This document shows, one piece after another, positions 6,793 to 64,000 of a DNA stretch of 64,000 bases (within the stretch, counting starts at the first letter, position 1; each line of letters begins with the position of its first letter). This DNA is from Dehalococcoidia bacterium (GTDB lineage Bacteria; Chloroflexota; Dehalococcoidia; Bin125). The stretch is from NCBI GenBank assembly GCA_965261715.1, contig OZ253471.1, forward strand, positions 560,763-624,762. Direction: 5' to 3'. The position numbers were made by a program, and so were the translations under genes. Below the pieces are notes generated by a model that worked only from the letters and a program-made list of their open reading frames with translations, ran no database searches and had not been told where the DNA came from.

Positions 6793-7275
6793 ATGCCCAG
6801 CACCGAACACATCGTCGTGAGCTGCACCATCAACGGCGAGCAGCAAGTCTTTCTGGCCAACGAGCGCGACTCCCTGCTCGAGGCGCTGCGTGACCGGATC
6901 GGACTGACCGGCGCCAAAGAGGGTTGCAACAACGGCAACTGCGGCGCTTGCTGCGTCAACATGGACGGCCGGATCGTCAATAGCTGCCTCGTGATGGCAG
7001 CCGAATGCGAAGGCGCTGAGATCCGCACCGTCGAGGGACTGGCCACTGGCGACCAACTGTCGCCGTTGCAGAACGCCTTCCTTGAGCAGGCCGCGCTGCA
7101 GTGCGGCATCTGCACGCCGGGATTCCTCGTCGCTGCTGAATCGCTGCTCGAACAGAACTCCGACCCGACGGAACACGAGATCCGCTACTGGCTGGCCGGC
7201 AACCTCTGTCGCTGCACCGGCTACGACAAGATCATCAAGGCCGTCCAGCAGGCCGCTGGCCAGAGCGTCGTCTAA
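6793..7275 (+). CDS. Molybdenum hydroxylase [2Fe-2S] small (CoxS-like) subunit
   Basis: 160 aa carrying two cysteine clusters (CNNGNCGACCV and CGICTPGF...CRCTGY) typical of the CoxS/XdhC iron-sulfur subunit. Confidence 0.9.
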   Translation: MPSTEHIVVSCTINGEQQVFLANERDSLLEALRDRIGLTGAKEGCNNGNCGACCVNMDGRIVNSCLVMAAECEGAEIRTVEGLATGDQLSPLQNAFLEQAALQCGICTPGFLVAAESLLEQNSDPTEHEIRYWLAGNLCRCTGYDKIIKAVQQAAGQSVV

Positions 7276-7353
7276 CACCGACGGCTACACGCCGTCCGAT
7301 ATCGACGGTCATAGGCCGTCACACGTTGAGCACCACAAGAGAGGACTCCTCGC

Positions 7354-13672: not shown

Positions 13673-13699
13673 CGCCGCGTTTCCGCTCAGAGAGCTCTT

Positions 13700-14040
13700 T
13701 GCGTAAGTCCCCTTCTCCCCCCTTGCGGGGGAGATGCCGAAGGCAGAGGGGGGGACTCCCCATCTCAATGCCTGTCTGGTCGCTGGCCGAGCCCCCCCTC
13801 TCTGTCACTCCGTGACAACTCCCCCCGCAAGGAGACCTTTGAATAAGTCCCCTTCGCCCCCCTTGCGGGGGAGATGCCGAAGGCAGAGGGGGGGCTCCCC
13901 ATCTCAAGGCCTATCTGGTCGCTGGCGGCGGACCCCCCCTGTCACTCCGTGACATCTCCCCCCGCAAGGGGGGGAGAGGGGAATCATGAGTTTTTCGAAG
14001 GTCTCCGCAAGGGGGGAGAGGGGATAGGCGAGTTTTGCAA
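13700..14040. repeat. GC-rich palindromic tandem repeat (140-bp unit, about 2.4 copies)
   Basis: The unit 'ccccttgcgggggagatgccgaaggcagaggggggg(a/c)tccccatctcaa...gtcactccgtgaca(a/t)ctccccccgcaagg...' is seen directly. Exact 140-bp spacing (13721 vs 13861). Contains perfect hairpins with GCAA/TTGC loops. Lies between convergent gene ends. Confidence 0.8.
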
Positions 14041-14048
14041 AGGCCTCT

Positions 14049-20056: not shown

Positions 20057-20587
20057 ATGCTCTTGCCTGTGACGGCATTGCTGGCGCTCGCGATTGGGCT
20101 CAGCGCCTGCTCGGGGACGAATTCAGCCGCCATCGACCAACTCCGAGCCGACACTGCACGCGCCACTGAGGCCGCCCAGCGAGCCCAGGTGCTGGCGGCG
20201 TTGGAGCCGCTCAATCCGCTGCAATACCACCAGCTCGACCGGATGATCCTCGAAGACCAACACATCGCCGCCGACGCCGTGATCTGGGCAACCAGGGCTC
20301 GTGAAGCGCTGGCATGGGTCGACTGGCCGCACGAGCTCCAGGACCACGTCAAGCAATACGCCGAGTGGCTTGATGCGCTGCTCGCCAGGTTCCGCGAAGA
20401 CGATGCGATCTCTGCCTCGGAGCCGTCCAAGATCGTTCACGCGCTGGCCCATACCTTCGAGGCGACGCTCGAAGCCTGGCTCAACAATGAATCCCTCCCT
20501 GCCGTTCCGGCTCTAGCCGGACTGGAGCCTCCGATGCACAGCGATAGTCATAACGACAATGGCCAAGTCGACGAACACAGCGAATAA
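20057..20587 (+). CDS. Lipoprotein, hypothetical
   Basis: 'MLLPVTALLALAIGLSACSG' shows a lipobox (LSAC). The rest is helical with no recognised domain. Confidence 0.45.
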   Translation: MLLPVTALLALAIGLSACSGTNSAAIDQLRADTARATEAAQRAQVLAALEPLNPLQYHQLDRMILEDQHIAADAVIWATRAREALAWVDWPHELQDHVKQYAEWLDALLARFREDDAISASEPSKIVHALAHTFEATLEAWLNNESLPAVPALAGLEPPMHSDSHNDNGQVDEHSE

Positions 20588-21233
20588 GTGGCGTCTGCTC
20601 GCAGCGCTCGTACTGGGAGCGGCCGCCTGCTGGTTGCTCGCGCCTAGTGCGTCGGCGCATGCCGCGTTTGAGTCGTCCAACCCGGGGTTTGCCGAAATCC
20701 TCGCGGAGTCTCCATCCGAGATCAGCGTCCGTTTCACCCAGGAGCTATTTCGTCGAGAAGGCGCGAATTCGCTCGAATTGCAACAGGTCCACGGCGATGT
20801 CGTAGACGAATGGGATCTGCCGGGAACGGAAATCAGCAACGATGATCGTCATGTGATGCGACTCACCGTTGACGTCGAGCTGCCTCCAGGTCGATATCTC
20901 GTGTCCTGGAGAAACCTGTCCGCAGAGGATGGGGATTCGGATTCCGGACTCTATCCGTTCTACGTGTCGAAAGGACCGACGGCAGAGGAGAGCGAATCGG
21001 ATCGCCAACTCGCTGCGGAGCTGCTGATCACCTATCCAGGCGACGAGGTCGAGCAATCGGAGTCTGAGGTCGCGAGTCCCACAGCACCTCCGATTGTCGT
21101 GAGAGCCGAGTCGCCGAGCGATGCGAGTCTCGGTGTTGGACCAGTTATCTGGTTCATCGTCGGCATCGTTGCCGCGCTCACACTCTTGGCGACCCTGATA
21201 CTCCACCGAATCAACCGCAGGCAAGTCGAATGA
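20559..21233 (+). CDS. CopC-domain copper-binding protein with C-terminal membrane anchor
   Basis: Signal peptide then mature N-terminal His ('ASA|HAAFESSNP'). CopC-like beta-sandwich pattern (ISVRFTQEL...YLVSWRNLSAEDGDS). C-terminal TM helix. Confidence 0.6.
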   Translation: MAKSTNTANKWRLLAALVLGAAACWLLAPSASAHAAFESSNPGFAEILAESPSEISVRFTQELFRREGANSLELQQVHGDVVDEWDLPGTEISNDDRHVMRLTVDVELPPGRYLVSWRNLSAEDGDSDSGLYPFYVSKGPTAEESESDRQLAAELLITYPGDEVEQSESEVASPTAPPIVVRAESPSDASLGVGPVIWFIVGIVAALTLLATLILHRINRRQVE

Positions 21234-22240
21234 GCCTGCGATCTGTCACGCTGTCGCTGTTCGCGCTGGCAACCCTGTTCGCGGCATGCGGCGGAGGCGG
21301 TGACACAGACGTCGAGCGACGAATCCCCGCTCCGGGGACCTTCATCTTCACGCAAGGCGTCGACCTGTGGATCCAGGACGAACAGGGCGCCCGACTCCTC
21401 ATCGCTGCCGGACAGGATCAACAGCTCCTGCAACCTGCAATCTCGCCCGACGGCACGCGCGTGGCATACATCGTCTTCCAACTGACCCAGGCTGAAGGCG
21501 CGACGATCGGCGCCGATCTTGCCATCGCGGCTCTCGACGATCCCAAACAAGAGATCGTCGTTCAACATGCGCGACAAGCAGAGTTTGTCTGGAATCCGCG
21601 CTGGACGCCCGATGGCGGATCGCTCATCTTCACACACGAACCGGGCGAGCTGCTGATCCGGGTCGCACGGCTCGATCTGCAGCGTCGCGAGGTGGAAATC
21701 GTGCGCGAAGACGCGCGAGACGCTGATATCTCGCGGGACGGCGCCATGCTCGTCTTCGTCAACGCCCCGTACAGCGGCGATCCACACCTCGTTGTGCGGG
21801 ATCTGATGGACGGCTCGGAGACCGTGCTCGATCCGGACCGGGAATGGCAACCGAGACCCTTCCGCATTCCTCGTTTCATGCCGGACGGAGACGCCGTCGT
21901 CTTCACGGCGGGACAGTTCCTGCCCCAGGTGTCCACCAAGGTTCTCGGTTTCAACGGACCTGAGGACATCTGGCTGGTCGATCTCGACACTCTCCAGCTA
22001 CTTCAGATCGCCGCGATTGGCGAGGACCAACCCGATTTCGCGCTATCCGACGACGGACGCCATGTGCTCGTGATGGGAGCATTCGGCATCTATCTCGTCG
22101 CCACAGATGCTGCCGATCCGCCCTACGCCATTGCACCGGGCGAGTTTCACGGCGGCGTCGATTGGGTCGGCAGCGTCGGTGAAGAGGAGTGGGCAAGGAT
22201 TCGCGAGTCTGTCTTCGAGGTTCAGGACTCCTCGCGATGA
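21230..22240 (+). CDS. TolB-like beta-propeller lipoprotein
   Basis: Lipobox 'LFAACGGGG'. Repeated 'SPDG/TPDG/SRDG/MPDG...V(F/Y)' PD40-type propeller blades. Its ATG overlaps the upstream stop (ATGA). Confidence 0.6.
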   Translation: MSLRSVTLSLFALATLFAACGGGGDTDVERRIPAPGTFIFTQGVDLWIQDEQGARLLIAAGQDQQLLQPAISPDGTRVAYIVFQLTQAEGATIGADLAIAALDDPKQEIVVQHARQAEFVWNPRWTPDGGSLIFTHEPGELLIRVARLDLQRREVEIVREDARDADISRDGAMLVFVNAPYSGDPHLVVRDLMDGSETVLDPDREWQPRPFRIPRFMPDGDAVVFTAGQFLPQVSTKVLGFNGPEDIWLVDLDTLQLLQIAAIGEDQPDFALSDDGRHVLVMGAFGIYLVATDAADPPYAIAPGEFHGGVDWVGSVGEEEWARIRESVFEVQDSSR

Positions 22241-24438
22241 AACGCCCGGGCTTGCTCGCTCTGGTGGCGGCGGCGTCAATCGCCGTGATGCTCGTGTTCT
22301 CCGGCCATGCCGAGGCCCACGCGCTCCTCTCGCGCGCCGACCCGCCGATCAACGCCTCGCTGCGCGAGTCGCCGACGCGGATCACCCTGTTCATGACCGA
22401 GCGACTGCAGCGCAGCCACAGCTCGGTGAGGATTCTCGATAGCTCCGCTCAGCGCCGCGAAATCGGCGAAACCGAGTTCTCCGACGCCGTGCCGACACAG
22501 ATGAGTGTCCGCGTACTGCGACTCGATCCCGGCGTCTACACCGTGGTCTGGGAGACGCTATCCGAGGTAGATGGTCATACGTGGACCGGCTCGTACGTGT
22601 TCTCGGTGCTGAATCCCGACGGATCGGCTCCCGCAGGCAGCGGCGTGACCGTCGACCTCAATCGTCCCGGCCCACCGGTTGCGGCCGACGCCGTCGTGAA
22701 GGCAGTTGGACTAACGGCCCTGGTGCTCTTTGTTGGCGCGGTGGCGATGTCGTTCATCCTGCGACCCTCGCCGCTATCGACGCTCCTGCCACTGATTGCC
22801 ACGACCGTCGTGATCGGCGTCGCAACAACAGGCTACGAAGCAATCGCGGGAGCGCTGCGTTTGGGCGACGTGGGCTTTCTCGGAGATGTCCTCTTCGACA
22901 CGCGCAATGGACTCTGGCTCCAGCAGCGCTGGTACACGCTTGTTGTCGCGGCGCTGGCGCTGAGCTTGCGCTTCATCCGTCCGGCGGCGCTCAACGACCT
23001 CAGATTGCGCTCGCTCCTGTTCGTGCTGGCTATTGTCTGGCTGGCGTCCACTTCCGCGATCTCGCACGGCGCGGCCGTCGGCTCAGGCTGGATCTGGGGC
23101 ACGCTGTTTGATGCATTGCATCTGTCAGCCGCTGCGATCTGGATCGGTGGTCTCGTCAGCCTGCTCCTGACCCTCAGAACACACCCGGACCACCGCGTTG
23201 AGATGGTCCGGCGATTCTCCATTGTGGCCGCCGCAACTGTGCCAATCCTCGCCGCGGCTGGCCTGCTCTCGGCATTGATCCAGATTCCACAGGTCGATGG
23301 CATCTTCGAGACCGATTGGGGCCTGGCGTTCCTGGTCAAGATCGGTGTCCTGATTGCGCTCTTCGCTGCCGCCGGCGCAAACGCGTTCCTGTTGCGACCC
23401 CGCGACGCTGCGTCGGACGGCCGTAACAACGTGCTCAAAGAGCGTTTCGCGCGGCTCATGCGCGTTGAAGCCGTGTTGGGTCTGGCGGTGATCGCCGCCT
23501 CCGCCGCATTGACCCAACTGCCATCGCCGGCCAGCGCTCAGCCCGATGTCGAGCAGAAGGACAACACGGTCGTCGAAACCGTGGCTCGCGGCGACATCGT
23601 CGCGTCGCTGGAGATCTCGCCCAATCTGGTCGGATTCAACACATGGACCGCGACGATCGATGGTCCGCAGGACAACCCGGTAGAAGATCTGTTGCTGCGC
23701 TTCCGCTACCAGGACCCGAGCGTCGGGCCGGTCACGGTGGCGGCTGAATCTGTTGGCGATGGACACTTCCGACTTGAGGGCGCGTACTTCGGTCTGCCCG
23801 GCGAGTGGACCATCGAGATGGAGATGCGTCGGGCGTCGGGCGACGATCTCGTCGTCGCTCTCCTGAGCGACGTGGAATCCAGCTTCCAGGCGTCGCCGTT
23901 TGCCGTCGATAGCGGTGGCGCGCTGGGATTGCCGCTGACGCAAATGGATTGGAACGGCGTCGGCGCGCTGTGGGCGTTCGTGATTGGCGGATTGGCCTGG
24001 ATCAATCGCCCTCGCCTTCGTTCCGCGTTCGGACCGCGAGCCGCCGACGGCGCGTTCGTGATGGGCTTGCTCGGCCTCATTCTGGCGGTCGTGCTGCTGA
24101 CCGGCTTGCATGTCGAGCCCGGTCGAACCTTGGCCAATCCGGTCCAGCAAACGGCCGATTCCGTGCAGCGGGGATCGGCATTGTTCGCCGCCAATTGCGT
24201 GTCCTGTCACGGAGATACCGGCGCCGGCGACGGTCCGTTGGCCGATTCCTTGCCAGCCCCTCCGGCCAACTTCACGGTGCATGTCCCATTCCATCCGGAC
24301 GGGGTGCTCTTTGCCTGGATCACGGACGGGATTCGCGGTACCGGGATGCCCGCCTGGTCACCGCAACTCTCGGACCAGGAGCGCTGGGATCTGGTCAACT
24401 TCTTGCGGGACAACTTCGATGTTCCCGTCCCTCAGTGA
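22237..24438 (+). CDS. CopC-CopD fusion with C-terminal cytochrome c domain (copper resistance/uptake)
   Basis: Signal peptide then 'A|HALLSRADPP' CopC domain. Eight or more TM helices form a CopD-like region. C-terminal 'CVSCHGDTGAGDGP' is a CxxCH heme c motif. ATG at 22237 overlaps the previous stop (ATGA). Confidence 0.8.
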   Translation: MKRPGLLALVAAASIAVMLVFSGHAEAHALLSRADPPINASLRESPTRITLFMTERLQRSHSSVRILDSSAQRREIGETEFSDAVPTQMSVRVLRLDPGVYTVVWETLSEVDGHTWTGSYVFSVLNPDGSAPAGSGVTVDLNRPGPPVAADAVVKAVGLTALVLFVGAVAMSFILRPSPLSTLLPLIATTVVIGVATTGYEAIAGALRLGDVGFLGDVLFDTRNGLWLQQRWYTLVVAALALSLRFIRPAALNDLRLRSLLFVLAIVWLASTSAISHGAAVGSGWIWGTLFDALHLSAAAIWIGGLVSLLLTLRTHPDHRVEMVRRFSIVAAATVPILAAAGLLSALIQIPQVDGIFETDWGLAFLVKIGVLIALFAAAGANAFLLRPRDAASDGRNNVLKERFARLMRVEAVLGLAVIAASAALTQLPSPASAQPDVEQKDNTVVETVARGDIVASLEISPNLVGFNTWTATIDGPQDNPVEDLLLRFRYQDPSVGPVTVAAESVGDGHFRLEGAYFGLPGEWTIEMEMRRASGDDLVVALLSDVESSFQASPFAVDSGGALGLPLTQMDWNGVGALWAFVIGGLAWINRPRLRSAFGPRAADGAFVMGLLGLILAVVLLTGLHVEPGRTLANPVQQTADSVQRGSALFAANCVSCHGDTGAGDGPLADSLPAPPANFTVHVPFHPDGVLFAWITDGIRGTGMPAWSPQLSDQERWDLVNFLRDNFDVPVPQ

Positions 24439-24527
24439 ACTCTGGCTAGCTGGTACGCTGGAGCCAACCGATCCAGACGGACGCTGCTCGAATCCTGGGC
24501 TGCGCTGTCCCCTGACAGGAACAGATC

Positions 24528-25562
24528 ATGGTCTCCGCGATTGAGAACCCGGGCCTCAACCTTGACTGGCTGAACCTCGAGACCGACGATGATTTCGATA
24601 TCCAGGTGGGACGCAAGGGCGTCACGCTGCAGTCGATCAACCAGCGCATGGCTGGCGTCGAAGGCGTTGACGAAGCGAACTGGCGCTCATTCGCGCCTCG
24701 CGGCATCGAGGCCGACCCGCGCTCCAACGCGCACGCGCGGCAGTACCGCGACAAAGGCGATGTCTGGTCCGAGTCGGCGATGCTGCTCTACGAAGAGGCG
24801 CTGCAGCGCCAGTGGTCGTCGGCCCGTGACATTCCCTGGGACACGATCGGCGACCAGCCCGACGACATCGAAAAGGCAATGTGCACCCTGTGTACGTTCC
24901 TGACTCAGGTCGAATTCATCGCCGGCGACGTCCCCGGTCGGTTCCTTGAGTCTGTGCACCCCGACTTCTTCGAGTCGCAGCTCTTCCTCGGCACCCAGTT
25001 GATGGACGAAGCCCGACACCTCGACGTCTTCCGCAAGCGCGTACTGGTCAACGGCGGCGGCATGTCGCCGGCCGGACTCGGCGCAGTCGGCCTGCTCGCG
25101 ATCGACGACTTCACCGAGATGACCACAATCCTCCACCTCTTCGCGGAGGGTCTGGTCCAGTCACTGTTCCGCATGGGTGAGCTGATTGGTCAGAACGAAG
25201 CCGAGAAGCGCATGTTCCGACTCTCCGCGCAGGACGAGTCGCGGCACCTCGCCTTTGGCGTCACGCACACCAAGTACACCGTCGAGACGCAGCCCTGGCG
25301 CAAGGAAGAACTGCACCACTACCTCGACATCAACGAGGTTGTGCAGAACACGCAGGCCGGCCTGACCACCAACCCGATCACGGGCGAGGCCCTGGCCGTG
25401 CTCGCCGGCGGTGGCATCGAGCACCTGGACGAGGGTTACAACCTCGTCATGCTGATGCGCAAGAAGCAGATCAACGAGTACTACCACCGCCTACAGGTGG
25501 TCGGCCTCGGTGACCGCCTCCACCGGATGTCGCCCGACATGCGGGCGCTGATCACCGTATAG
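24528..25562 (+). CDS. AurF-like ferritin-fold diiron oxygenase
   Basis: 344 aa containing two E...DExRH diiron motifs: 'LTQVEF...LMDEARHLDVF' and 'LFAEGLVQ...AQDESRHLAFG'. Confidence 0.7.
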   Translation: MVSAIENPGLNLDWLNLETDDDFDIQVGRKGVTLQSINQRMAGVEGVDEANWRSFAPRGIEADPRSNAHARQYRDKGDVWSESAMLLYEEALQRQWSSARDIPWDTIGDQPDDIEKAMCTLCTFLTQVEFIAGDVPGRFLESVHPDFFESQLFLGTQLMDEARHLDVFRKRVLVNGGGMSPAGLGAVGLLAIDDFTEMTTILHLFAEGLVQSLFRMGELIGQNEAEKRMFRLSAQDESRHLAFGVTHTKYTVETQPWRKEELHHYLDINEVVQNTQAGLTTNPITGEALAVLAGGGIEHLDEGYNLVMLMRKKQINEYYHRLQVVGLGDRLHRMSPDMRALITV

Positions 25563-25565
25563 CCC

Positions 25566-25661
25566 CGAACAAGCGCAGATTTGTCGGAACGTTGCCGAAC
25601 ATGTTCTGCTGAAAACCGAACAAAACCGAACAAAACCGAACAGAATCGAACGAATCTGAAC
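25566..25661 (+). repeat. Phased 10-bp direct-repeat array, (C)CGAACA unit, 8-9 copies
   Basis: 'cgaac' occurs at 25566, 25586 (ggaac), 25596, 25617, 25627, 25637, 25647 and 25657 (tgaac), a strict 10-bp period. The stretch is A/C-rich and G-poor and lies 41-136 nt upstream of the ATG at 25702. Confidence 0.7.
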
Positions 25662-25701
25662 GCGTCAAGAGCAGATCACCCCGAAGAAGACGGGAAATTC
25701 C

Positions 25702-26976
25702 ATGCCGCCTCTCTCTCCTGCCCAGAACATGCGCGCCCAGGTCCGCGGTTGGCCCGCCGAGCTGATCAAGCGGGTCGAGAACTCGAGCACCTCGGGACGC
25801 CAGATCGACAACATCCTCAACATCTCGATCGAACCGGATCGGGTCAGCAAGTGGCTTGAGTTCATCGAGAACAATCCTGAGCACCCGTTAGCGGGAGCGC
25901 AGTTCATCATGTTCGAGGACGGTGGCGAGACAGGACTCAAGCCAACGGCGTCCGAAGACGGCATGCGCCTCAGCGACGTCGACATCGGCTCCTACGGCCA
26001 CGTGCCGGATGTCTGGAAGTTCCGCAACGATCTGCCACGTGGCACTCGTCCGGTTCCCGGCATGTACATGCCCGCGGGATACGCGATTTACGACCGAGCC
26101 GAAGTCTGGGCCGAAGGCGTCTCCGACCTGTACGAAGACGCGATCCGCGACCGCTGGATTCCCGCGACTGACCTCGATTGGGATAACCGCGAAGAACTAG
26201 CGCCAGAGGTCGAACGCGCCACCGGTCAGATCTGCGCGGTCTATTCCACCTATGGCATCGCCGAGCAGAAAGTGATCTCAAAGTGGCTGGAGGAGATCTC
26301 CTACGGCTTCCACGAGGTCAAGCTGTTCCTGGCGACGCAGGTCTACGATGCCGGCCGCAAGGTCGAGGCATTGCGCAAGCGCGCGCTGCACGGCTCCGGG
26401 ATCATCGGCAAAGCGCCGCTCTCGGATGTCTCCGAAGCCTGGTACAACGCCCTGACCTTCACCGACATGATTATCGCGCTTGACGTGGTCTACAAGTCCT
26501 ACGAGTTGACCGCCTTCGAATGCGCGACCGACTGGGCTCGCTCCGACTTCGACCGCGACCTCTTCGCCCGACTCGCCGAGGACAGCAAGCGTCACCTCGA
26601 CTACGGCCTCAAGCACCTCCAGTGGTACAACCGCTACGCCGAACGAGCCGAGATGGAACTGCCGATTTTCTTTATCAAGGCTGAAGGCGGTCTCGCCTCC
26701 GAGATGGCGCAGTCGCCGCTCGAGCGCGAAGCGCTGGCCGTGCTCTACGCGGACGGCGTGGAGCGGCTCGACGCCGGCGTCGAGGGCTTGCGCAAGCTGC
26801 GCGAGAAGCAGTACCAGGATTACCTGCATCGCCTACACGAGCACGGCTTCAACCGGATCGGCGAGGTCGCGGGCATTCTTGGTCTGGCGACCCAGGACCC
26901 GCTGCTCAAGGCGCTGACTCCAGAAGCGCTGACCGAAGGCGCGGCCGCCGGTACCACGGCCACGGATCGCGACTAG
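25702..26976 (+). CDS. AurF-like diiron protein paralog with a degenerate first metal motif
   Basis: 424 aa that align with 24528..25562. The second motif is intact (LAEDSKRHLDYG) but the first is replaced (VYDAGRKVEAL, no His). Confidence 0.6.
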   Translation: MPPLSPAQNMRAQVRGWPAELIKRVENSSTSGRQIDNILNISIEPDRVSKWLEFIENNPEHPLAGAQFIMFEDGGETGLKPTASEDGMRLSDVDIGSYGHVPDVWKFRNDLPRGTRPVPGMYMPAGYAIYDRAEVWAEGVSDLYEDAIRDRWIPATDLDWDNREELAPEVERATGQICAVYSTYGIAEQKVISKWLEEISYGFHEVKLFLATQVYDAGRKVEALRKRALHGSGIIGKAPLSDVSEAWYNALTFTDMIIALDVVYKSYELTAFECATDWARSDFDRDLFARLAEDSKRHLDYGLKHLQWYNRYAERAEMELPIFFIKAEGGLASEMAQSPLEREALAVLYADGVERLDAGVEGLRKLREKQYQDYLHRLHEHGFNRIGEVAGILGLATQDPLLKALTPEALTEGAAAGTTATDRD

Positions 26977-34587: not shown

Positions 34588-34986
34588 ATGCCAATTCGAA
34601 AACCTTGGATTCAGCCGAGCGAAGAGTCGATTCGTGCGATTCCCGCCGTCCTCGGCGTCTATGAGATCGCCGACGCCGAGGGCAACTTGATCTACATCGG
34701 ACAGGCCGGAGGTCGCGAGCCGTTCGGTCTGCGCACCAGGATGGCGCTGCACTTCGGCGGCGACGATCCGAATCTAGTGTTGCGAGAGCGAGCGGCGCAA
34801 TTTCGCTGGGAGTCGAACCAGCAATACACGTCGAAGCGACTCGAGATGCTGATGCAGTTCCAGCGCGACGAAGGCGTTGAATGGCCGCCGGCGCATCCGG
34901 CGGGGGACTGGCGCGATACGCCGCAGCTCGGTCGGCTGCGTCGCTCACAGCCCCTCCGGCAATCGAGCGAGCAATCGAGCGAGTAA
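34588..34986 (+). CDS. Small GIY-YIG-domain protein
   Basis: 'VLGVYEIADAEGNLIYIGQAGG...RTRMALH...RWE' fits the GIY-x(9-11)-YIG ... R ... H ... E pattern of GIY-YIG nucleases. About 132 aa from ATG 34588. Confidence 0.5.
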   Translation: MPIRKPWIQPSEESIRAIPAVLGVYEIADAEGNLIYIGQAGGREPFGLRTRMALHFGGDDPNLVLRERAAQFRWESNQQYTSKRLEMLMQFQRDEGVEWPPAHPAGDWRDTPQLGRLRRSQPLRQSSEQSSE

Positions 34987-35030
34987 TCGAGCGGGCAATT
35001 GAGTGGGCATTTTAGTGGGAAGTGGAGGAT
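34960..35030 (+). repeat. Decaying 12-bp tandem repeat (caatcgagcgag x about 5)
   Basis: Seen directly: 'caatcgagcgag caatcgagcgag taatcgagcggg caattgagtggg cattttagtggg aagtggagga', ending in the acd ribosome-binding site. Confidence 0.5.
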
Positions 35031-35034
35031 TCCG

Positions 35035-36204
35035 ATGGATGTCTTGATGTCGGAAGAACAGCGGATGATCACGCAGGCCGTGAAGCGATTCGTGCGCGAG
35101 GAGGTGCAGCCGCTGGAGCGCGATCTCGATCCCGACGCGGTAGAACTCCCGCCGGGGGAGCTGGATCGGCTCAAAGGCATCGTCCAGCAGATGGGTTTGT
35201 ACCACATTGACGTGCCCGAGGACTATGGCGGGCCCGGTATGCCGCTCACCACGCGCGGTCTCGTGGCCGAGGAGATGTCTCAGCATCGGGCGGGCTTATA
35301 CCTGCCCTGCTACGGGGCCTTCGGCTCAGCCGGACTGGCACAGCTGTATGCCGCCACCGACGATCAGAAGGACCGCTACCTCTATCCGATGCTCAATGGC
35401 GAGAAGCGCGCCTTCTTCGGTCTGACCGAGCCGTCGGGCGGATCGGACCCGGCGCGCGCGATTCAGACCAAGGCCGTAAAGGACGGCGACGACTGGATCC
35501 TGAACGGGTCGAAGCTCTTCAGTTCGGGCGCTGACCGCGCCGACTTCGGCCTGGTCTTCGCCCGCACCGATCCGTCCAAAGGGCGGCGAGGCATCTCCGC
35601 GTTCCTTGTGGACACGGACTCGCCCGGCTTCGAAGTCCGCCGCGTCGTGCACACCCTGCGCTCGGCAAACTATGGGACCGAGTTGTCGTTCGACGATATT
35701 CGGGTTCCGGCGGCAAATCTCCTCGGCGAGGAGGGCGGCGGATTCTCGTTGGCCAACGCCAATCTGACACGCCAACGGATTCCCTACTCGGCCACCTGCA
35801 TCGGCATCGCAGTCGCGGCGCAGGCGATGGCGATTTCGTACTCGCAGCAACGAGAGACATTCGGCGCCGCGCTTGCGTCGCGACAGGCGATCCAATGGAT
35901 GATCGTGGACAACGAGATCGACATCCGCACCGGCCGCATGATGTATCTCGCCGCCGCCGAAAAGTCCGAGCAGGACGAACCCTTCCGCTTCGAGGCGGCG
36001 ATGGCCAAGCTGACCTCAACCGAGGGCGCGAGCCGCGTCGTTGACCGCGCAATACAAATTCACGGCGGCATCGGCGTGACCAAAGACCTGCCGCTCGAGC
36101 GTTGGTATCGCGAGATGCGGATTCGCAGAATCGGTGAGGGTCCGTCCGAGGTGCAACGGATCATCATGGCGCGCGACCTGCTGGGTCGCGGTAGCAGCGG
36201 ATAG
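35035..36204 (+). CDS. Acyl-CoA dehydrogenase
   Basis: 389 aa from 'MDVLMSEEQRMI'. ACAD N/M/C domains present with catalytic-base region '...IQIHGGIGVTKDLPLERWYRE'. Confidence 0.9.
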   Translation: MDVLMSEEQRMITQAVKRFVREEVQPLERDLDPDAVELPPGELDRLKGIVQQMGLYHIDVPEDYGGPGMPLTTRGLVAEEMSQHRAGLYLPCYGAFGSAGLAQLYAATDDQKDRYLYPMLNGEKRAFFGLTEPSGGSDPARAIQTKAVKDGDDWILNGSKLFSSGADRADFGLVFARTDPSKGRRGISAFLVDTDSPGFEVRRVVHTLRSANYGTELSFDDIRVPAANLLGEEGGGFSLANANLTRQRIPYSATCIGIAVAAQAMAISYSQQRETFGAALASRQAIQWMIVDNEIDIRTGRMMYLAAAEKSEQDEPFRFEAAMAKLTSTEGASRVVDRAIQIHGGIGVTKDLPLERWYREMRIRRIGEGPSEVQRIIMARDLLGRGSSG

Positions 36205-45529: not shown

Positions 45530-45956
45530 ACGACAGAGACAGTTCCTCGCTCCCCCTGCATGGAGACCTTTGCGTAACTCCTCTTCTCCGCTCTCGCGGA
45601 GACTTGCGCGTAAATCCCCTTCTCCCCCCTTGCGAAGACCTTTGAAAACTCCCCTTTGCCCCCCTTGCGGGGGAGATGCCGTAGGCAGAGGGGGGGCTCC
45701 CCATCCCCTGGCCTATCTAGTCGCTGTGCGCGGACCCCCCCTCTGTCACTCCGTGACATCTCCCCCCGCAAGGGGGGGAGAGGGGATTCGGGAGTTTTGC
45801 AAAGGTCTCCTTGCAGGGGAGATGCCGTAGGCAGAGGGGGGGCTCCCCATCCCCTGGCCTATCTAGTCGCTGTGCGCGGACCCCCCCTCTGTCACTCCGT
45901 GACATCTCCCCCCGCAAGGGGGGGAGAGGGGATTCGGGAGTCTTGCAAGGGTCTCC
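45530..45956. repeat. GC-rich palindromic tandem repeat (about 157-bp unit, about 2.5 copies)
   Basis: 'gagatgccgtaggcagagggggggctccccatcccctggcctatctagtcgctgtgcgcggaccccccctctgtcactccgtgacatctccccccgcaagggggggagaggggattcgggag' is repeated with a 157-bp period (45662 vs 45819). Same family as 13700..14040. Confidence 0.8.
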
Positions 45957-60839: not shown

Positions 60840-60929
60840 TGGCGGAGGGTGAGGGATTCGAACCCTCGACGGAGTTTCCCCCGAACCCGCTTAGCAGGCG
60901 GGCGCACTAGGCCACTATGCGAACCCTCC
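60840..60929 (-). tRNA. tRNA-Ser (anticodon GCT)
   Basis: Reverse complement folds as a cloverleaf: GGAGGGT acceptor, GG in the D-loop, anticodon stem CCCGC/GCGGG with loop CTGCTAA (GCT), long variable arm, GGTTCGAATCC T-arm, encoded CCA. 90 nt. Confidence 0.85.
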
Positions 60930-62498: not shown

Positions 62499-63419
62499 CT
62501 ACTCCGCTGCGCCTGGAGGTTGGTACTTGTCCGCCTCTTCGAGAACGCGGCGCATCGTCGAGCCGATCTCTGCGGGGCTGCGTGAGATCACCGCTCCGGC
62601 TGCTTCGAGCGCGGCGAGCTTTGCTTCGGCGGTGCCGGCCTCGCCCTCGATGATGGCGCCGGCGTGTCCCATCCGCCGTCCTGGAGGCGCAGTCGCGCCC
62701 GCGATGAATGCGACGACCGGCTTGGTCATACTGCGCTTGATGTACGCGGCCGCGGCCTGTTCGGCCAGTCCGCCGATCTCACCGATCAGCACGACGGCGT
62801 CGGTGTCGGGGTCGTTCTGGAATCGGCGCAGGATGGCCTGTTGTTGTTCACCGATGATCGGGTCGCCGCCAACCCCAACGCAGGTCGACTGGCCGATGCC
62901 CGCGCGGGTCAACTGATCGACCGCCTCGTAGACCAGCGTGCCGGAGCGCGAGACGACGCCGACGTTGCCGGACATGAAGACATCGGGTGGGTGAATCCCC
63001 ACGCGGCACTTCGACGCCGGCTGAATGATCCCCGGGCAGTTGGGGCCGATCAGTTTGCTCTTGGAGCCGGCCAGCGCGGTGCGCACGCGGATCATGTCGT
63101 GGACCGGCACGCCCTCGGTGATGCAGACGATCAGCGGCACCTCAGCAGCGATGTTCTCGAGGATCGCGTCGGCCGCGCCGGGGGCGGGCACGTAGATGAT
63201 CGAGCAGTTGGCCTGCGTCTTCTCAACTGCTTCAGTGACCGTGGCATAGACCGGGAAGATGTGATTGGCGTGGGCGAAGTTTTCGCCACCGCGGAATCCC
63301 GGATGCACGCCCACGACCACCTTCGTGCCGTAGTCGAGAGAGCGTCGAATTTGGTTCTGACCCTCGTTACCGAGGCCCTGGATCATCAGTCGGGTGCGGT
63401 TGTTGAGAAGAATGCTCAT
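62499..63419 (-). CDS. sucD: Succinyl-CoA synthetase alpha subunit
   Basis: '[12 protein letters not shown]' N-terminus, the CoA-binding motif, and the phospho-His loop 'GHAGA'. Confidence 0.9.
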
Positions 63420-63431
63420 GCGCCGGTTCCT

Positions 63432-63490
63432 CGTTCGGGAGTGTTCGGTCTTGTTCGGGTTTGTTCGGATTTGTTCGATGCTGTTCGAAC
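63432..63490 (-). repeat. Phased 10-bp direct-repeat array, (C)CGAACA unit in sucD sense, 6 copies
   Basis: 'gttcg' occurs at 63432, 63442, 63452, 63462, 63472 and 63482 (exact 10-bp period). In sucD sense this reads ...UCGAACAGCA UCGAACAAAU CCGAACAAAC CCGAACAAGA CCGAACACUC CCGAACGAGG AACCGGCGC AUG. Confidence 0.7.
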
Positions 63491-63508
63491 CCAGCTACGA
63501 ACCGTTTG

Positions 63509-64000
63509 CTAGTTGTTGGACCGTGTTCGGCGCTTGCCGGACTTGGCCGCCTCGACCGCGAGCTCGGCCGCGTCACCAAGTTCGTCCGACGTCTGAATGT
63601 CGATGCCGGAATCGTGCAGCACTCGGCGGCCTTCCTCGACGTTGGAGCCGTTCAGCCGCACGACCAGCGGCTGCCGGATGTCGAGCTCCGTGACCGCGTC
63701 AACGACGCCCTCGGCAACGATATCCACGCGCGCGAGTCCGCCGAAGATGTTGATGAAGATCACCTTCACGTCGGGGTCGTTGACGATGATCCGCAAGGCT
63801 TCGATCACGCGGTCTTTGCGGTTGACCGTGCCGATGTCGAGGAAGTTGGCCGGCTCGCCGCCGTACAGCTTGAGCGTGTCCATCGTGGCCATGGCCAGGC
63901 CGGCGCCGTTGACGACGCAGCCGATGTTGCCGTCGAGCTTGATGTAGGAACCGATGTTGGCCTCTTCGGCCTCAATCTCGGTCGGATTCTCCTGAGAGCG
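63509..64000 (-). CDS. sucC: Succinyl-CoA synthetase beta subunit (partial; 5' part lies beyond the window)
   Basis: C-terminal part of SucC ('...[14 protein letters not shown]...'). It reads from the window edge down to the stop at about 63509. Confidence 0.85.

What the first reader, a model, noticed from the sequence alone, without database searches (positions are those of the whole stretch)
25566..25661. About 100-bp array of CCGAACA repeated with exact 10-bp periodicity directly upstream of a start codon
Between the two AurF-like genes the motif CGAAC recurs at 25566, 25586, 25596, 25617, 25627, 25637, 25647 and 25657 ('accgaacaaaaccgaacaaaaccgaacagaatcgaacgaatctgaacg'). That is one copy per helical turn.

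The stretch is A/C-rich and almost G-free, and it ends about 40 nt before the ATG at 25702.

Phased A-tract-containing direct repeats of this kind can be any of three things: (a) intrinsically curved DNA acting as an UP-like promoter element; (b) a tandem binding array for a direct-repeat-recognising regulator such as an OmpR/PhoB-type response regulator; or (c) an unstructured CA-rich translational enhancer in the leader RNA.

I do not recognise it as a described motif.
Basis: seen in the sequence. Interest (0 to 1): 0.7.

Follow-up and report, generated by a model that had tools for sequence, protein, structure and literature searches.

The report
Decamer-repeat spacer between operon genes
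A short run of CCGAACA repeated every 10 bases fills the gap between two co-transcribed genes, recurs at a second gene pair in the same window and in related Dehalococcoidia genomes, gains and loses whole units between strains, and most likely acts on the messenger RNA in front of the ribosome-binding site rather than as a promoter or regulator-binding site.

Summary
The repeat is real. Five contiguous units (CCGAACAAAA x2, CCGAACAGAA, TCGAACGAAT, CTGAAC) lie at 25616-25661 with exact 10-nt spacing, and three looser copies lie upstream. No shuffle reproduces this.

It is not unique. A six-unit array of the same heptamer lies on the minus strand at 63488-63433. It fills the sucC-sucD spacer and ends 13 nt before the sucD ATG, directly against the Shine-Dalgarno sequence. 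No promoter can fit downstream of it, so it must be transcribed.

The window is Dehalococcoidia-class Chloroflexota. In that lineage CCGAACA-N3 arrays recur, nearly always on the sense strand, ahead of unrelated metabolic genes.

The arrays are labile:
- Array 1 is missing from the three closest orthologous loci.
- The sucD array ranges from 0 to 6 units.
- It differs by one exact 10-nt unit between strains 97.7% identical.

Where the sucD array is kept, it is far more conserved than synonymous sites.

Best reading (about 0.45): a transcribed, A/C-rich, ACA-bearing intercistronic leader module that evolves by unit slippage and serves translation initiation.

An UP element or curved-DNA promoter and an OmpR/PhoB-type activator array are disfavoured. 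A pause or Rho-loading array, or near-neutral repeat DNA, remain open. No described family matches.

The parts
24528..25562 (+). Upstream gene of array 1: ferritin-like (weakly R2lox-like) protein, 344 aa, stop TAG at 25560-25562
   Evidence: ORF list. Same gene call on the sister-strain contig. Weak NCBIfam R2-like ligand-binding oxidase hit.
25565..25606 (+). Loose 5' part of array 1: CCGAAC at 25565-25570, CGGAAC at 25585-25590, CCGAAC at 25595-25600. The last overlaps the palindrome GAACATGTTC (25597-25606), which is an inverted copy of the core.
   Evidence: Sequence; coordinates.
25616..25661 (+). Contiguous array 1: five decamer units with exact 10-nt period (CCGAACAAAA, CCGAACAAAA, CCGAACAGAA, TCGAACGAAT, CTGAAC)
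   Evidence: TRF period 10. Pattern statistics. Coordinates.
25662..25701 (+). 40-nt stretch between array 1 and the start codon, holding a purine-rich Shine-Dalgarno-like GACGGGAAA
   Evidence: Sequence. No sigma-70-like promoter or terminator in 24300-26000.
25702..26976 (+). Downstream gene of array 1: ferritin-like paralogue, 424 aa (28% identical to the upstream gene)
63509..64000 (-). 3' part of the succinate--CoA ligase beta subunit gene (sucC-like), stop TAG at 63511-63509
   Evidence: Pfam and NCBIfam. Stop coordinate. Full gene on the sister-strain contig.
63486..63503 (-). Two inverted copies of the core (GGTTCG at 63503-63498 and 63491-63486). The second forms the palindrome GTTCGAAC with the first array unit.
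   Evidence: A small 6-bp hairpin GUUCGA/UCGAAC appears in the minimum-free-energy fold.
63433..63488 (-). Array 2: six decamer units with exact 10-nt period on the minus strand (TCGAACAGCA, TCGAACAAAT, CCGAACAAAC, CCGAACAAGA, CCGAACACTC, CCGAAC)
   Evidence: TRF. Pattern search. Coordinates.
63420..63432 (-). Shine-Dalgarno GAGGAA (63432-63427) and spacer, directly abutting the last unit of array 2
   Evidence: The 33 nt upstream of the ATG are identical in L133/L134 although 4-fold sites have diverged 0.46.
62499..63419 (-). Succinate--CoA ligase alpha subunit gene (sucD), 306 aa, ATG at 63419-63417
   Evidence: NCBIfam NF004230 at 392 bits, above its cutoff of 336. Pfam.

Best explanation
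The CCGAACA-N3 decamer array is a transcribed, sense-strand module. It makes up most of the intercistronic spacer in front of the ribosome-binding site of the second gene of a two-gene unit (ferritin-like A/B; sucC/sucD).

It belongs to a lineage-specific family in Dehalococcoidia-class Chloroflexota: a conserved heptamer, three variable bases, a strict 10-nt register, and an A/C-rich, G/U-poor composition.

Proposed mechanism, acting in cis on the mRNA: the array gives a low-structure stretch carrying ACA motifs immediately 5' of the Shine-Dalgarno sequence. This stretch serves as a landing or standby platform, or translational enhancer, for de novo initiation on the downstream cistron. The array grows and shrinks by slipped-strand gain or loss of whole 10-nt units, which changes spacer length between strains.

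Shown:
- the repeat and its statistics;
- a second array abutting a Shine-Dalgarno sequence;
- sense-strand bias;
- lineage specificity of the heptamer;
- unit-number variation;
- loss in close relatives;
- strong conservation of the sucD array where it is retained.

Inferred:
- that it is within the transcript (from position; no RNA data);
- that it affects translation initiation;
- that slippage is the mutational mechanism.
For: Position:
- Array 2 ends 13 nt from the sucD ATG, against GAGGAA, and fills the 89-nt sucC-sucD spacer.
- Array 1 starts 3 nt after the upstream stop codon and ends 40 nt before the ATG.
- No promoter-like or terminator-like site is found in 24300-26000.

Strand:
- In Dehalococcoidia loci, 10 of 11 arrays lying between co-directional genes are sense-oriented, by my own gene calls.
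- Nine downstream same-strand genes are confirmed by Pfam, and they are unrelated enzymes.

Family:
- Position 7, left free in the search pattern, is A in 86% of Dehalococcoidia hits against 21% in other taxa.
- The spacers vary in Dehalococcoidia hits.
- Both period-10 arrays of three or more units in the window share this heptamer.

Selection on the sucD array:
- Window and L131 differ at about 5% of aligned positions, plus whole-unit indels.
- The proximal 33 nt are identical to L133, while 4-fold sites differ by 0.45-0.46.
- L060 keeps the cores at the same site with entirely different spacers.

Slippage: L130 and L131 are 97.7% identical, encode the same SucD protein, and differ by exactly one 10-nt unit.

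RNA properties:
- No significant predicted structure (z +1.0 and -1.1).
- Five ACA motifs lie directly upstream of each Shine-Dalgarno region.
- ACA motifs just upstream of a Shine-Dalgarno sequence are experimentally shown translation enhancers in Salmonella (PMC3879156).
- Deleting either array in silico raises the energy needed to open the ribosome-binding site by about 2.5 kcal/mol.
Against: - There are no transcript data, so the RNA-level role rests on position only.
- The in-silico accessibility benefit is weak: the native sequence ranks at the 7th and 25th percentile against random genomic inserts.
- That benefit disappears across orthologues. With arrays the opening energy is 8.9-11.4 kcal/mol; without arrays it is 7.9-13.1.
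- The element is dispensable. The three closest orthologues of array 1 lack it, and the sucD array is absent from L128/L129, L136 and L137.
- A translational enhancer gives no reason for an exact 10-nt register or for an invariant GAAC.
- Related arrays also lie in frame inside coding low-complexity linkers and 100-400 nt from start codons in other genomes.
- L130 differs from L131 in the array at or above the synonymous rate. Constraint is therefore uneven.
Confidence: 0.45

Rival explanations
1. Near-neutral repeat DNA. The array is a lineage-specific decamer minisatellite or dispersed small repeat (MIRU-like) that seeds in permissive intergenic and linker sites. It expands by slippage and is tolerated mainly in the orientation that gives harmless, unstructured RNA. 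It has no function of its own.
For: - It is absent from the closest orthologous loci, and a REP-like element occupies the same site in L121/L122.
- The sucD array ranges from 0 to 6 units, with a one-unit indel between strains.
- The 5' units have decayed in L133 to CCAAC, CAAAC and TGAGC.
- L130 and L131 differ in the array at 9%, against 5-6% at third codon positions.
- Arrays are embedded in coding linkers.
- Decamer arrays with composition-matched cores are as common or commoner in viral contigs: 6 for CCGAACA against 28, 6 and 17 for controls.
- Ribosome-binding-site accessibility does not differ between orthologues with and without the array.
Against: - Independent arrays in one lineage share the same heptamer while their spacers differ (window arrays).
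- The 33 nt before the sucD ATG are identical, and the whole array is about 5% diverged, at 0.45 four-fold divergence.
- Cores are retained with fully diverged spacers in L060.
- There is a strong sense-strand bias.
Confidence: 0.2
2. A platform for transcription-translation coupling on the nascent transcript. Three non-exclusive forms are considered.
- Each unit places G at -10, a pyrimidine at -1 and G at +1, which is the consensus elemental pause. The array would then be a row of RNA-polymerase pause sites ahead of the start codon.
- The C-bearing, G-poor repeats form a Rho-loading (rut-like) site. This would make transcription of the downstream cistron depend on its translation.
- An unknown lineage-specific RNA-binding protein or small RNA reads the heptamers.
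For: - Every unit, including the variants CCG, TCG and CTG, keeps one YG step exactly 10 nt from the next.
- The pause motif is -10G, -1Y, +1G, and it is enriched at translation start codons (PMC10268239; PMC5234074).
- This reading would explain both the exact 10-nt register and the strand specificity.
- The composition is C > G and the RNA is predicted to be unstructured.
- A conserved heptamer with variable spacers is the usual signature of a site read by a trans-acting factor.
Against: - The pause match carries little information. Any 10-nt repeat with a single G preceded by C fits it. The invariant AAC after the G is not explained, and -11 is C rather than G.
- The arrays are A-rich rather than C-rich (C 26-36%).
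- No candidate factor or complementary RNA was found in the window.
- None of this is testable from sequence alone.
Confidence: 0.2
3. A DNA operator array. A direct-repeat-binding protein coats the decamers on one face of the helix and represses or blocks transcription into the downstream gene. Candidates are an OmpR/PhoB-type winged-helix regulator, a LexA-like protein using CGAACR half-sites, or a ribbon-helix-helix protein of the ParR type.
For: - The period is exactly 10 bp, and where units are missing the spacing is 20 or 21 bp.
- GAAC-N6-GAAC resembles the half-site arrays of OmpR-family regulators and the CGAACR half-site of the Gram-positive-type LexA box (my own knowledge, not tested here).
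- Inverted core copies lie at the 5' edge of both arrays.
Against: - The arrays lie inside operons next to the Shine-Dalgarno sequence, so an activator geometry is impossible for array 2.
- The downstream genes share no theme.
- The arrays are lost in the nearest relatives and vary by strain.
- The near-exclusive sense orientation is not expected of a symmetric DNA site.
- CGAAC-N4-GTTCG is not enriched in the window: 60 matches against 56.5 expected.
- No SOS gene was found in the Dehalococcoidia loci screened.
Confidence: 0.1
4. Intrinsically curved DNA acting as an UP-like promoter element for the downstream gene.
For: Array 1 has three A4 tracts phased at 10 bp.
Against: - No -35/-10 candidate lies in the 40 nt downstream of array 1.
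- Array 2 leaves 13 nt before the ATG.
- Array 2 and its relatives have only A2-A3 runs.
- The flanking genes are co-directional and closely spaced.
Confidence: 0.03

Closest known systems
C/A-rich and ACA-motif translational enhancers upstream of Shine-Dalgarno sequences (GcvB target sites in dppA, yifK and others in enterobacteria)
   Same: - Single-stranded A/C-rich sequence immediately 5' of the Shine-Dalgarno sequence.
- Several ACA trinucleotides: 5 before each ribosome-binding site here, 4 in dppA.
[quoted passage not shown]
   Different: - Here the ACAs sit in a strict 10-nt tandem repeat with an invariant GAAC core.
- The arrays are intercistronic and vary in number between strains.
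- The lineage is different.
- No enhancer activity and no small-RNA partner has been shown.
Mycobacterial interspersed repetitive units (MIRU-VNTR)
   Same: - Small repeats inside polycistronic operons that are transcribed with them.
- Present or absent between related genomes.
- Copy number varies between strains (PMC3184786).
   Different: - MIRUs are 40-100 bp units with short ORFs overlapping the flanking genes, and they have G+C-rich inverted repeats.
- Here the unit is 10 nt, has no ORF and no stable structure.
- No target-site duplication was seen.
Direct-repeat operator arrays of OmpR/PhoB-family response regulators (pho boxes, tor boxes, GlnR boxes)
   Same: Short conserved cores repeated head-to-tail about once per helical turn, in 2-6 copies (my own knowledge).
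   Different: - Those arrays lie at or upstream of the -35 region of promoters of a coherent regulon, and they are conserved at orthologous promoters.
- These arrays lie between a stop codon and a Shine-Dalgarno sequence, ahead of unrelated genes, and they are evolutionarily labile.
Consensus elemental transcription pause (-10G, -1Y, +1G), enriched at translation starts
   Same: Every unit supplies G(-10), C/T(-1) and G(+1) on the non-template strand, close to a start codon (PMC10268239).
   Different: - Known pause sites are single, not tandem.
- The fit is low in information and leaves the conserved AAC unexplained.
- No pausing data exist for this lineage.
Rho utilisation (rut) sites
   Same: An unstructured stretch of 50-100 nt with C > G and regularly spaced pyrimidine-C steps, exposed once the upstream ribosome terminates (my own knowledge).
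   Different: - The arrays are A-rich rather than C-rich.
- rut sites have no fixed heptamer.
- Rho dependence was not tested.

Membership tests
C/A-rich / ACA translational enhancer | Located in the mRNA immediately upstream of the Shine-Dalgarno sequence | tested here: met
   By position only. Array 2 abuts GAGGAA 13 nt before the ATG. Array 1 ends 40 nt before its ATG. Both lie between co-directional genes with no promoter-like site. No RNA data.
C/A-rich / ACA translational enhancer | Contains ACA motifs in an unstructured context | tested here: met
   There are 5 ACA in each motif-bearing region. Fold z-scores are +1.0 and -1.1, i.e. no significant structure.
C/A-rich / ACA translational enhancer | Raises translation of the downstream gene | not testable with these tools
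   Only a proxy was possible. The energy to open the ribosome-binding site falls by about 2.5 kcal/mol with the array in place. There is no consistent difference across orthologues.
MIRU-like intercistronic VNTR | Lies within operons and varies in copy number or presence between strains and species | tested here: met
   The sucD array has 0-6 units among relatives, and L130 and L131 (97.7% identical) differ by one 10-nt unit. Array 1 is absent from L121-L125.
MIRU-like intercistronic VNTR | Unit of 40-100 bp carrying a small ORF that overlaps the flanking genes | tested here: not met
   The unit is 10 nt. The spacers contain no ATG-initiated ORF, and the downstream reading frame is closed just before the ATG.
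OmpR/PhoB-type direct-repeat operator | Direct repeats about one helical turn apart | tested here: met
   Exact 10-bp period.
OmpR/PhoB-type direct-repeat operator | Placed at or upstream of the -35 region of a promoter it controls | tested here: not met
   No promoter-like site was found. Array 2 leaves 13 nt before the ATG.
OmpR/PhoB-type direct-repeat operator | Conserved at orthologous promoters of a functionally coherent regulon | tested here: not met
   The arrays are lost in the closest relatives. The downstream genes are unrelated enzymes.
OmpR/PhoB-type direct-repeat operator | Bound by a response regulator | not testable with these tools
LexA (Cheo-type) box | Inverted repeat CGAAC-N4-GTTCG upstream of SOS genes | tested here: not met
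   Only direct repeats are present, plus a palindrome with a 2-nt spacer. The pattern is not enriched: 60 matches against 56.5 expected. No recA or lexA was found in the Dehalococcoidia loci screened.
UP element / curved-DNA promoter module | A/T-rich or phased A-tract DNA at -40 to -60 of a promoter | tested here: not met
   Array 1 has phased A4 tracts. There is no downstream promoter, and array 2 leaves no room for one.
Consensus elemental pause | -10G, -1Y, +1G on the non-template strand | tested here: met
   All 11 contiguous units of the two arrays satisfy it by construction of the repeat. The motif definition comes from PMC10268239.
Consensus elemental pause | RNA polymerase dwells at the site | not testable with these tools
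   This needs NET-seq or in-vitro transcription.
Known RNA families (Rfam 15) | Match to a curated covariance model | tested here: not met
   There was no match at gathering score in the window other than a tRNA, and none in 15 related loci. Around array 1 only chance-level hits appeared, at E of 1.5 or more.

The most novel reading that the evidence does not exclude
The CCGAACA decamers are read by a lineage-specific trans-acting system. This could be RNA polymerase itself, pausing at each C|G step (tandem -10G/-1Y/+1G sites), or an unknown RNA-binding protein or small RNA. Under this reading the arrays form a post-transcriptional or co-transcriptional 'speed-bump' code. It would set the output of the second cistron of two-subunit enzymes and of many metabolic genes in soil and marine Dehalococcoidia, and unit number would act as a fast-evolving tuning knob.
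Probability: 0.15. Interest if true: 0.75.

Novelty: new variant of a known kind. Interest (0 to 1): 0.45.

Why it matters
Dehalococcoidia-class Chloroflexota are abundant, mostly uncultured, and almost nothing is known about how they control gene expression.

The element has four features that together invite experiment:
- a recurrent heptamer with a 10-nt register;
- location on the sense strand in front of ribosome-binding sites;
- strong conservation where it is kept;
- gain and loss of whole units between strains.

It would be a simple, countable cis-element for studying how such organisms set the ratio of two subunits encoded in one operon. If the pause or trans-factor reading holds, it would be a rare case in which the helical-turn-sized register of a repeat reflects the size of the RNA-DNA hybrid rather than DNA geometry.

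If the element is only tolerated repeat DNA, it is still a useful strain-typing marker (VNTR) for these genomes. It is also a caution that 10-bp periodicity next to a start codon need not mean a promoter or regulator site.

Tried and rejected
- Rfam. Gathering-score search of the whole window and of 15 related loci, and a permissive search around array 1, found nothing relevant.
- RNA structure. Neither spacer folds better than shuffled sequence.
- Promoter and terminator scan of 24300-26000 found none.
- LexA idea. The core equals the CGAACR half-site of the Gram-positive-type SOS box (recalled from memory). No enrichment of CGAAC-N4-GTTCG in the window. No recA or lexA in the Dehalococcoidia loci screened; the only recA hits among all held loci were in an Acidimicrobiia and a Limnohabitans locus.
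- Universal-motif idea. The metagenome scan returned 120+ arrays from very diverse taxa, G+C 0.32-0.73. Composition-matched control cores were as frequent or more frequent in viral contigs: 6 against 28, 6 and 17. The breadth therefore reflects the general abundance of decamer minisatellites, not a universal factor.
- 'The array keeps the ribosome-binding site open'. Supported weakly within the window but not across orthologues.
- Mobile element with defined ends. The flanks of the two window arrays share nothing beyond the motif. Alignment of array 1 with longer array-bearing elements of other genomes (L101, L056) shows only patchy similarity.
- The HTH protein whose gene carries arrays in other genomes has no homologue in the window. 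Its Pfam and PHROG matches are generic HTH domains.
- ECF-sigma -35 (GGAAC) readings of the units: inspecting the sequence showed no matching -10 at the right spacing.
- Complementarity of CCGAAC to the tRNA T-arm, and identity to the 5S rRNA loop C motif. Both were recalled from memory and not pursued, because they are short, untestable here, and have no mechanistic support.
No genome-wide count per genome could be made.
Full report
**1. The observation**

The sequence at 25560-25705 reads tag-cCCGAACaagcgcagatttgtCGGAACgttgCCGAACatgttctgctgaaaa-CCGAACAAAA-CCGAACAAAA-CCGAACAGAA-TCGAACGAAT-CTGAAC-gcgtcaagagcagatcaccccgaagaagacgggaaattcc-ATG.

- Exact CGAAC occurs at 25566, 25596, 25617, 25627, 25637 and 25647. 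The copies reported at 25586 and 25657 are GGAAC and TGAAC.
- Five units at 25616-25661 are spaced exactly 10 nt apart. The three upstream copies are spaced 20, 10 and 21 nt.
- Tandem Repeats Finder gives period 10, 4.0 copies, 93% matches.
- Four CGAAC at 10-nt spacing, with up to 2 mismatches, occur 5 times in the window and never in 100 shuffles.
- The stretch 25612-25661 is A27 C13 G7 T3. It is A/C-rich and G-poor but not 'almost G-free'.

**2. Surroundings of array 1**

- The array lies between two co-directional genes: 24528-25562 (344 aa) and 25702-26976 (424 aa). The same gene calls exist on a public contig from a sister strain.
- Neither protein matches Pfam. The first has weak R2-like ligand-binding oxidase hits. 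Neither has a significant relative among solved structures. Relatives are named 'ferritin-like domain-containing protein'.
- The two are paralogues at 28% identity, with paired E...D/E-x-x-R-H motifs. 'AurF-like' is therefore unverified. 'Ferritin-like di-metal protein pair' is the safe description.
- Upstream are CopC, a beta-propeller protein and a CopC-CopD-cytochrome c fusion. Downstream are an alpha/beta hydrolase and a cation/proton antiporter.
- No sigma-70-like promoter or intrinsic terminator is predicted in 24300-26000.
- The spacer RNA is no more structured than shuffled sequence (z +1.0).

**3. A second array in the same window**

Tandem Repeats Finder and the pattern search also flag 63433-63487. 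On the minus strand it reads TAG-caaacGGTTCGtagctgGGT-TCGAACAGCA-TCGAACAAAT-CCGAACAAAC-CCGAACAAGA-CCGAACACTC-CCGAAC-GAGGAAccggcgc-ATG.

- The upstream gene is the beta subunit of succinate--CoA ligase. The downstream gene is the alpha subunit, at 392 bits against a cutoff of 336.
- The array fills the 89-nt spacer, and its last unit touches the Shine-Dalgarno sequence 13 nt before the ATG.
- No promoter can fit downstream of it. It must be part of the sucCD transcript unless sucD is not expressed.
- This one fact removes the UP-element reading and any activator geometry.
- Both arrays are on the sense strand. Each sits between genes for two related or interacting subunits. Each is preceded by an inverted copy of the core: GAACATGTTC for array 1, and GGTTCG twice, the second forming GTTCGAAC with the first unit, for array 2.

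**4. Whose genome this is**

- L060, a sponge-associated 'Chloroflexi bacterium' contig, is syntenic with 59.5-63.9 kb of the window at 79-80% nucleotide identity.
- The window's REP-like repeats are shared with several 'Dehalococcoidia bacterium' genomes.
- Homologues of the window's proteins come from Chloroflexi, Dehalococcoidia and Tepidiforma.
- The window is 98.3% identical to the circular 3.53-Mb contig ERZ25071132:ctg820257_75x_c in the sucD region and about 99% identical in the ferritin-like region (L120). It is therefore a sister strain of that contig, not the contig itself.

**5. The motif elsewhere**

- Most hits are trivial: (CCGAA)n runs or identical-unit minisatellites, many in actinomycetes.
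- 22 hits come from Dehalococcoidia or Chloroflexi genomes and look like the window arrays.
- Position 7, left free in the search pattern, is A in 86% of these hits against 21% elsewhere.
- The spacers differ at two or more of four positions in 14 of 22 of these hits, against 23 of 97 elsewhere.
- The lineage therefore carries a family defined as CCGAACA plus three variable bases at a strict 10-nt register.

Context of the Dehalococcoidia arrays:

- By my own codon-usage gene caller, 10 of 11 arrays between co-directional genes are sense-oriented. Most of the others face the gene they precede or lie in a 3' region in sense.
- Nine downstream same-strand genes are confirmed by Pfam. They are an aldehyde:ferredoxin oxidoreductase, a luciferase-like monooxygenase, a HAD hydrolase, PEP carboxylase, two glyoxalases, an enoyl-CoA hydratase and an alcohol dehydrogenase. 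There is no regulon theme.
- Some arrays lie in frame inside low-complexity linkers of real proteins, encoding ...RTEPNKPEH....
- In some genomes the arrays are part of longer dispersed leader-like elements.

The core is not special globally.

- Composition-matched control cores gave 28, 6 and 17 decamer arrays in viral contigs, against 6 for CCGAACA.
- The many metagenome hits from unrelated taxa therefore carry no message.

**6. Evolution at the two sites**

Array 1:

- The orthologous spacer lacks the array in relatives with 91%, 88% and 85% identical downstream proteins. One carries a REP-like element there, and two have short unrelated spacers.
- A 79%-identical relative (L126/L127) has a degenerate version. 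It has 20/21/10-nt spacing and three inverted GTTCG(G) copies at its 5' edge.
- The sister strain is identical over the whole spacer.

Array 2, by unit count:

| Locus | Units |
|---|---|
| Window | 6 |
| L131/L132 | 6 |
| L130 | 5 |
| L133/L134 | 2 intact plus 3 decayed |
| L060 | 4 |
| L135 | 1 |
| L128/L129, L136, L137 | 0 |

- L130 and L131 encode the identical SucD protein and are 97.7% identical over 3.9 kb. They differ by exactly one 10-nt unit. This is strain-level unit gain or loss.
- The sister strain of the window differs only by a T/C swap at spacer position 10 of units 2 and 3.

Constraint on array 2:

- Four-fold degenerate sites of sucD differ by 0.45-0.49 between the window and L131, L133, L128 or L060.
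- Against that background the 33 nt before the ATG are identical in L133/L134. These 33 nt comprise two units, the Shine-Dalgarno sequence and the spacer.
- The whole array differs from L131 by about 3 substitutions plus unit indels.
- L060 keeps the cores with entirely different spacers.
- L130 and L131, in contrast, differ in the array at about 9% against 5-6% at third codon positions. L133 has let three 5' cores decay.
- The element is thus dispensable and fast-changing in unit number. Where it is retained, its Shine-Dalgarno-proximal part, and often all of it, is under purifying selection.

**7. Mechanism**

The facts that need explaining are these:

- the arrays are transcribed and sense-strand only;
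- they lie directly 5' of ribosome-binding sites within operons;
- they are A/C-rich, G/U-poor and lack stable structure;
- they have an invariant GAAC within CCGAACA;
- they keep an exact 10-nt register;
- they are lineage-specific;
- they are labile in unit number yet constrained in sequence.

The best-supported reading is a cis-acting leader module on the mRNA. It would help independent initiation on the downstream cistron, as a standby site or enhancer.

- Each array supplies five ACA motifs immediately upstream of the Shine-Dalgarno sequence.
- ACA motifs in exactly that position are demonstrated translation enhancers in Salmonella (PMC3879156).
- Removing either array in silico raises the cost of opening the ribosome-binding site by about 2.5 kcal/mol.
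- The effect is modest, and orthologues with and without arrays do not differ consistently. I hold this mechanism at about 0.45.

This reading does not explain the exact 10-nt register or the GAAC core. Two other ideas might.

- Pause array. Each unit reproduces the -10G/-1Y/+1G elemental pause consensus, which is known to be enriched at start codons (PMC10268239; PMC5234074). This gives a natural reason for a hybrid-length register and for strand specificity. The match is low in information.
- Rho loading or an unknown heptamer-reading factor.

Together these are held at about 0.2. Near-neutral, MIRU-like repeat DNA (PMC3184786) stays at about 0.2. A DNA operator stays at about 0.1, and an UP element at about 0.03.

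**8. Comparison with known systems, and novelty**

- The element works most like the C/A-rich, ACA-containing enhancers of enterobacterial leaders.
- It evolves like an intercistronic VNTR.
- It is not a member of MIRUs (unit size and ORF criteria fail), of OmpR/PhoB or LexA operators (position, regulon and symmetry criteria fail), of UP elements, or of any Rfam family.
- I found no description of it in the literature searches.
- I rate it a new variant of a known kind, with interest 0.45. The lineage-wide heptamer-plus-register pattern is a genuine, testable regularity in a poorly understood phylum. Its function is unproven, and the element is demonstrably dispensable at both loci.

Noticed in passing
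window 13680-14047 and 45562-45956: REP-like elements are built of G-runs and C-runs (for example CCCCCCGCAAGGGGGGGAGAG). One includes a 146-bp unit duplicated in tandem at 97% identity. Related copies occur in several other Dehalococcoidia MAGs, and one occupies the orthologous site of array 1 in L121/L122.
   Followed up: partly
window 34958-35019 (+): A different tandem array of period 12, about 5 copies of GCAATCGAGCGA, ends directly at a GGAGGA Shine-Dalgarno sequence and the ATG at 35035. It is G-rich, unlike the CCGAACA arrays, and may overlap the end of the upstream ORF.
   Followed up: no
window 20559-26976: A conserved cluster runs CopC, a PD40 beta-propeller protein, a CopC-CopD-cytochrome c fusion, then two paralogous ferritin-like proteins that have no Pfam family and no solved relative. 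The synteny is kept in relatives. It may be an uncharacterised copper- or di-metal-linked oxidase system.
   Followed up: partly
L048 3294-4286, L052 5415-6314, L080 5625-6536, L043 7169-7999, L068 (minus strand): In other Dehalococcoidia the CCGAAC decamer arrays lie in frame inside low-complexity linkers of an N-terminal-HTH protein family and of a RecG-like helicase. There they encode ...PEPSRTEPNASE... / ...RTDPNKPEQ... A 10-nt DNA period is thus read in all three frames.
   Followed up: partly
L018 6828-7080, L009 5665-5830, L097 (minus strand, reverse-complement coordinates 7100-7290), L101 2366-2500 and 2620-2790, L056 5426-5600: In these genomes the CCGAACA arrays continue into other period-10 units (CCGATCAAnn, AAACCTGAAn). 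A conserved hairpin GATCTCCAG...CTGGAGATC or a block ...ACACACAGCAGATC... follows. L101 holds two copies, which suggests a dispersed composite leader-like element. None has an Rfam match.
   Followed up: partly
window 63459 and 63469; L315 9951 and 9961: The window is not identical to the public contig that encodes the same proteins: 98.3% identity over 11.5 kb. Within array 2 the only differences are a reciprocal T/C exchange at the last spacer base of two adjacent units, as if the two units had swapped places.
   Followed up: yes
L130 against L131/L132 (same metagenome, ERZ24894576): Three contigs encode the identical SucD protein but carry 5 or 6 repeat units in the sucC-sucD spacer. This is co-existing strain variation that could serve as a VNTR marker.
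   Followed up: yes
window 60843-60929 (-): A single tRNA gene is the only Rfam match in the window.
   Followed up: no
L110 (Acidimicrobiia MAG), about 200 nt upstream of recA: A canonical Gram-positive-type LexA box, CGAACgggtGTTCG, lies upstream of recA. It was seen while testing the LexA half-site idea and is unrelated to the decamer array held in that locus.
   Followed up: no
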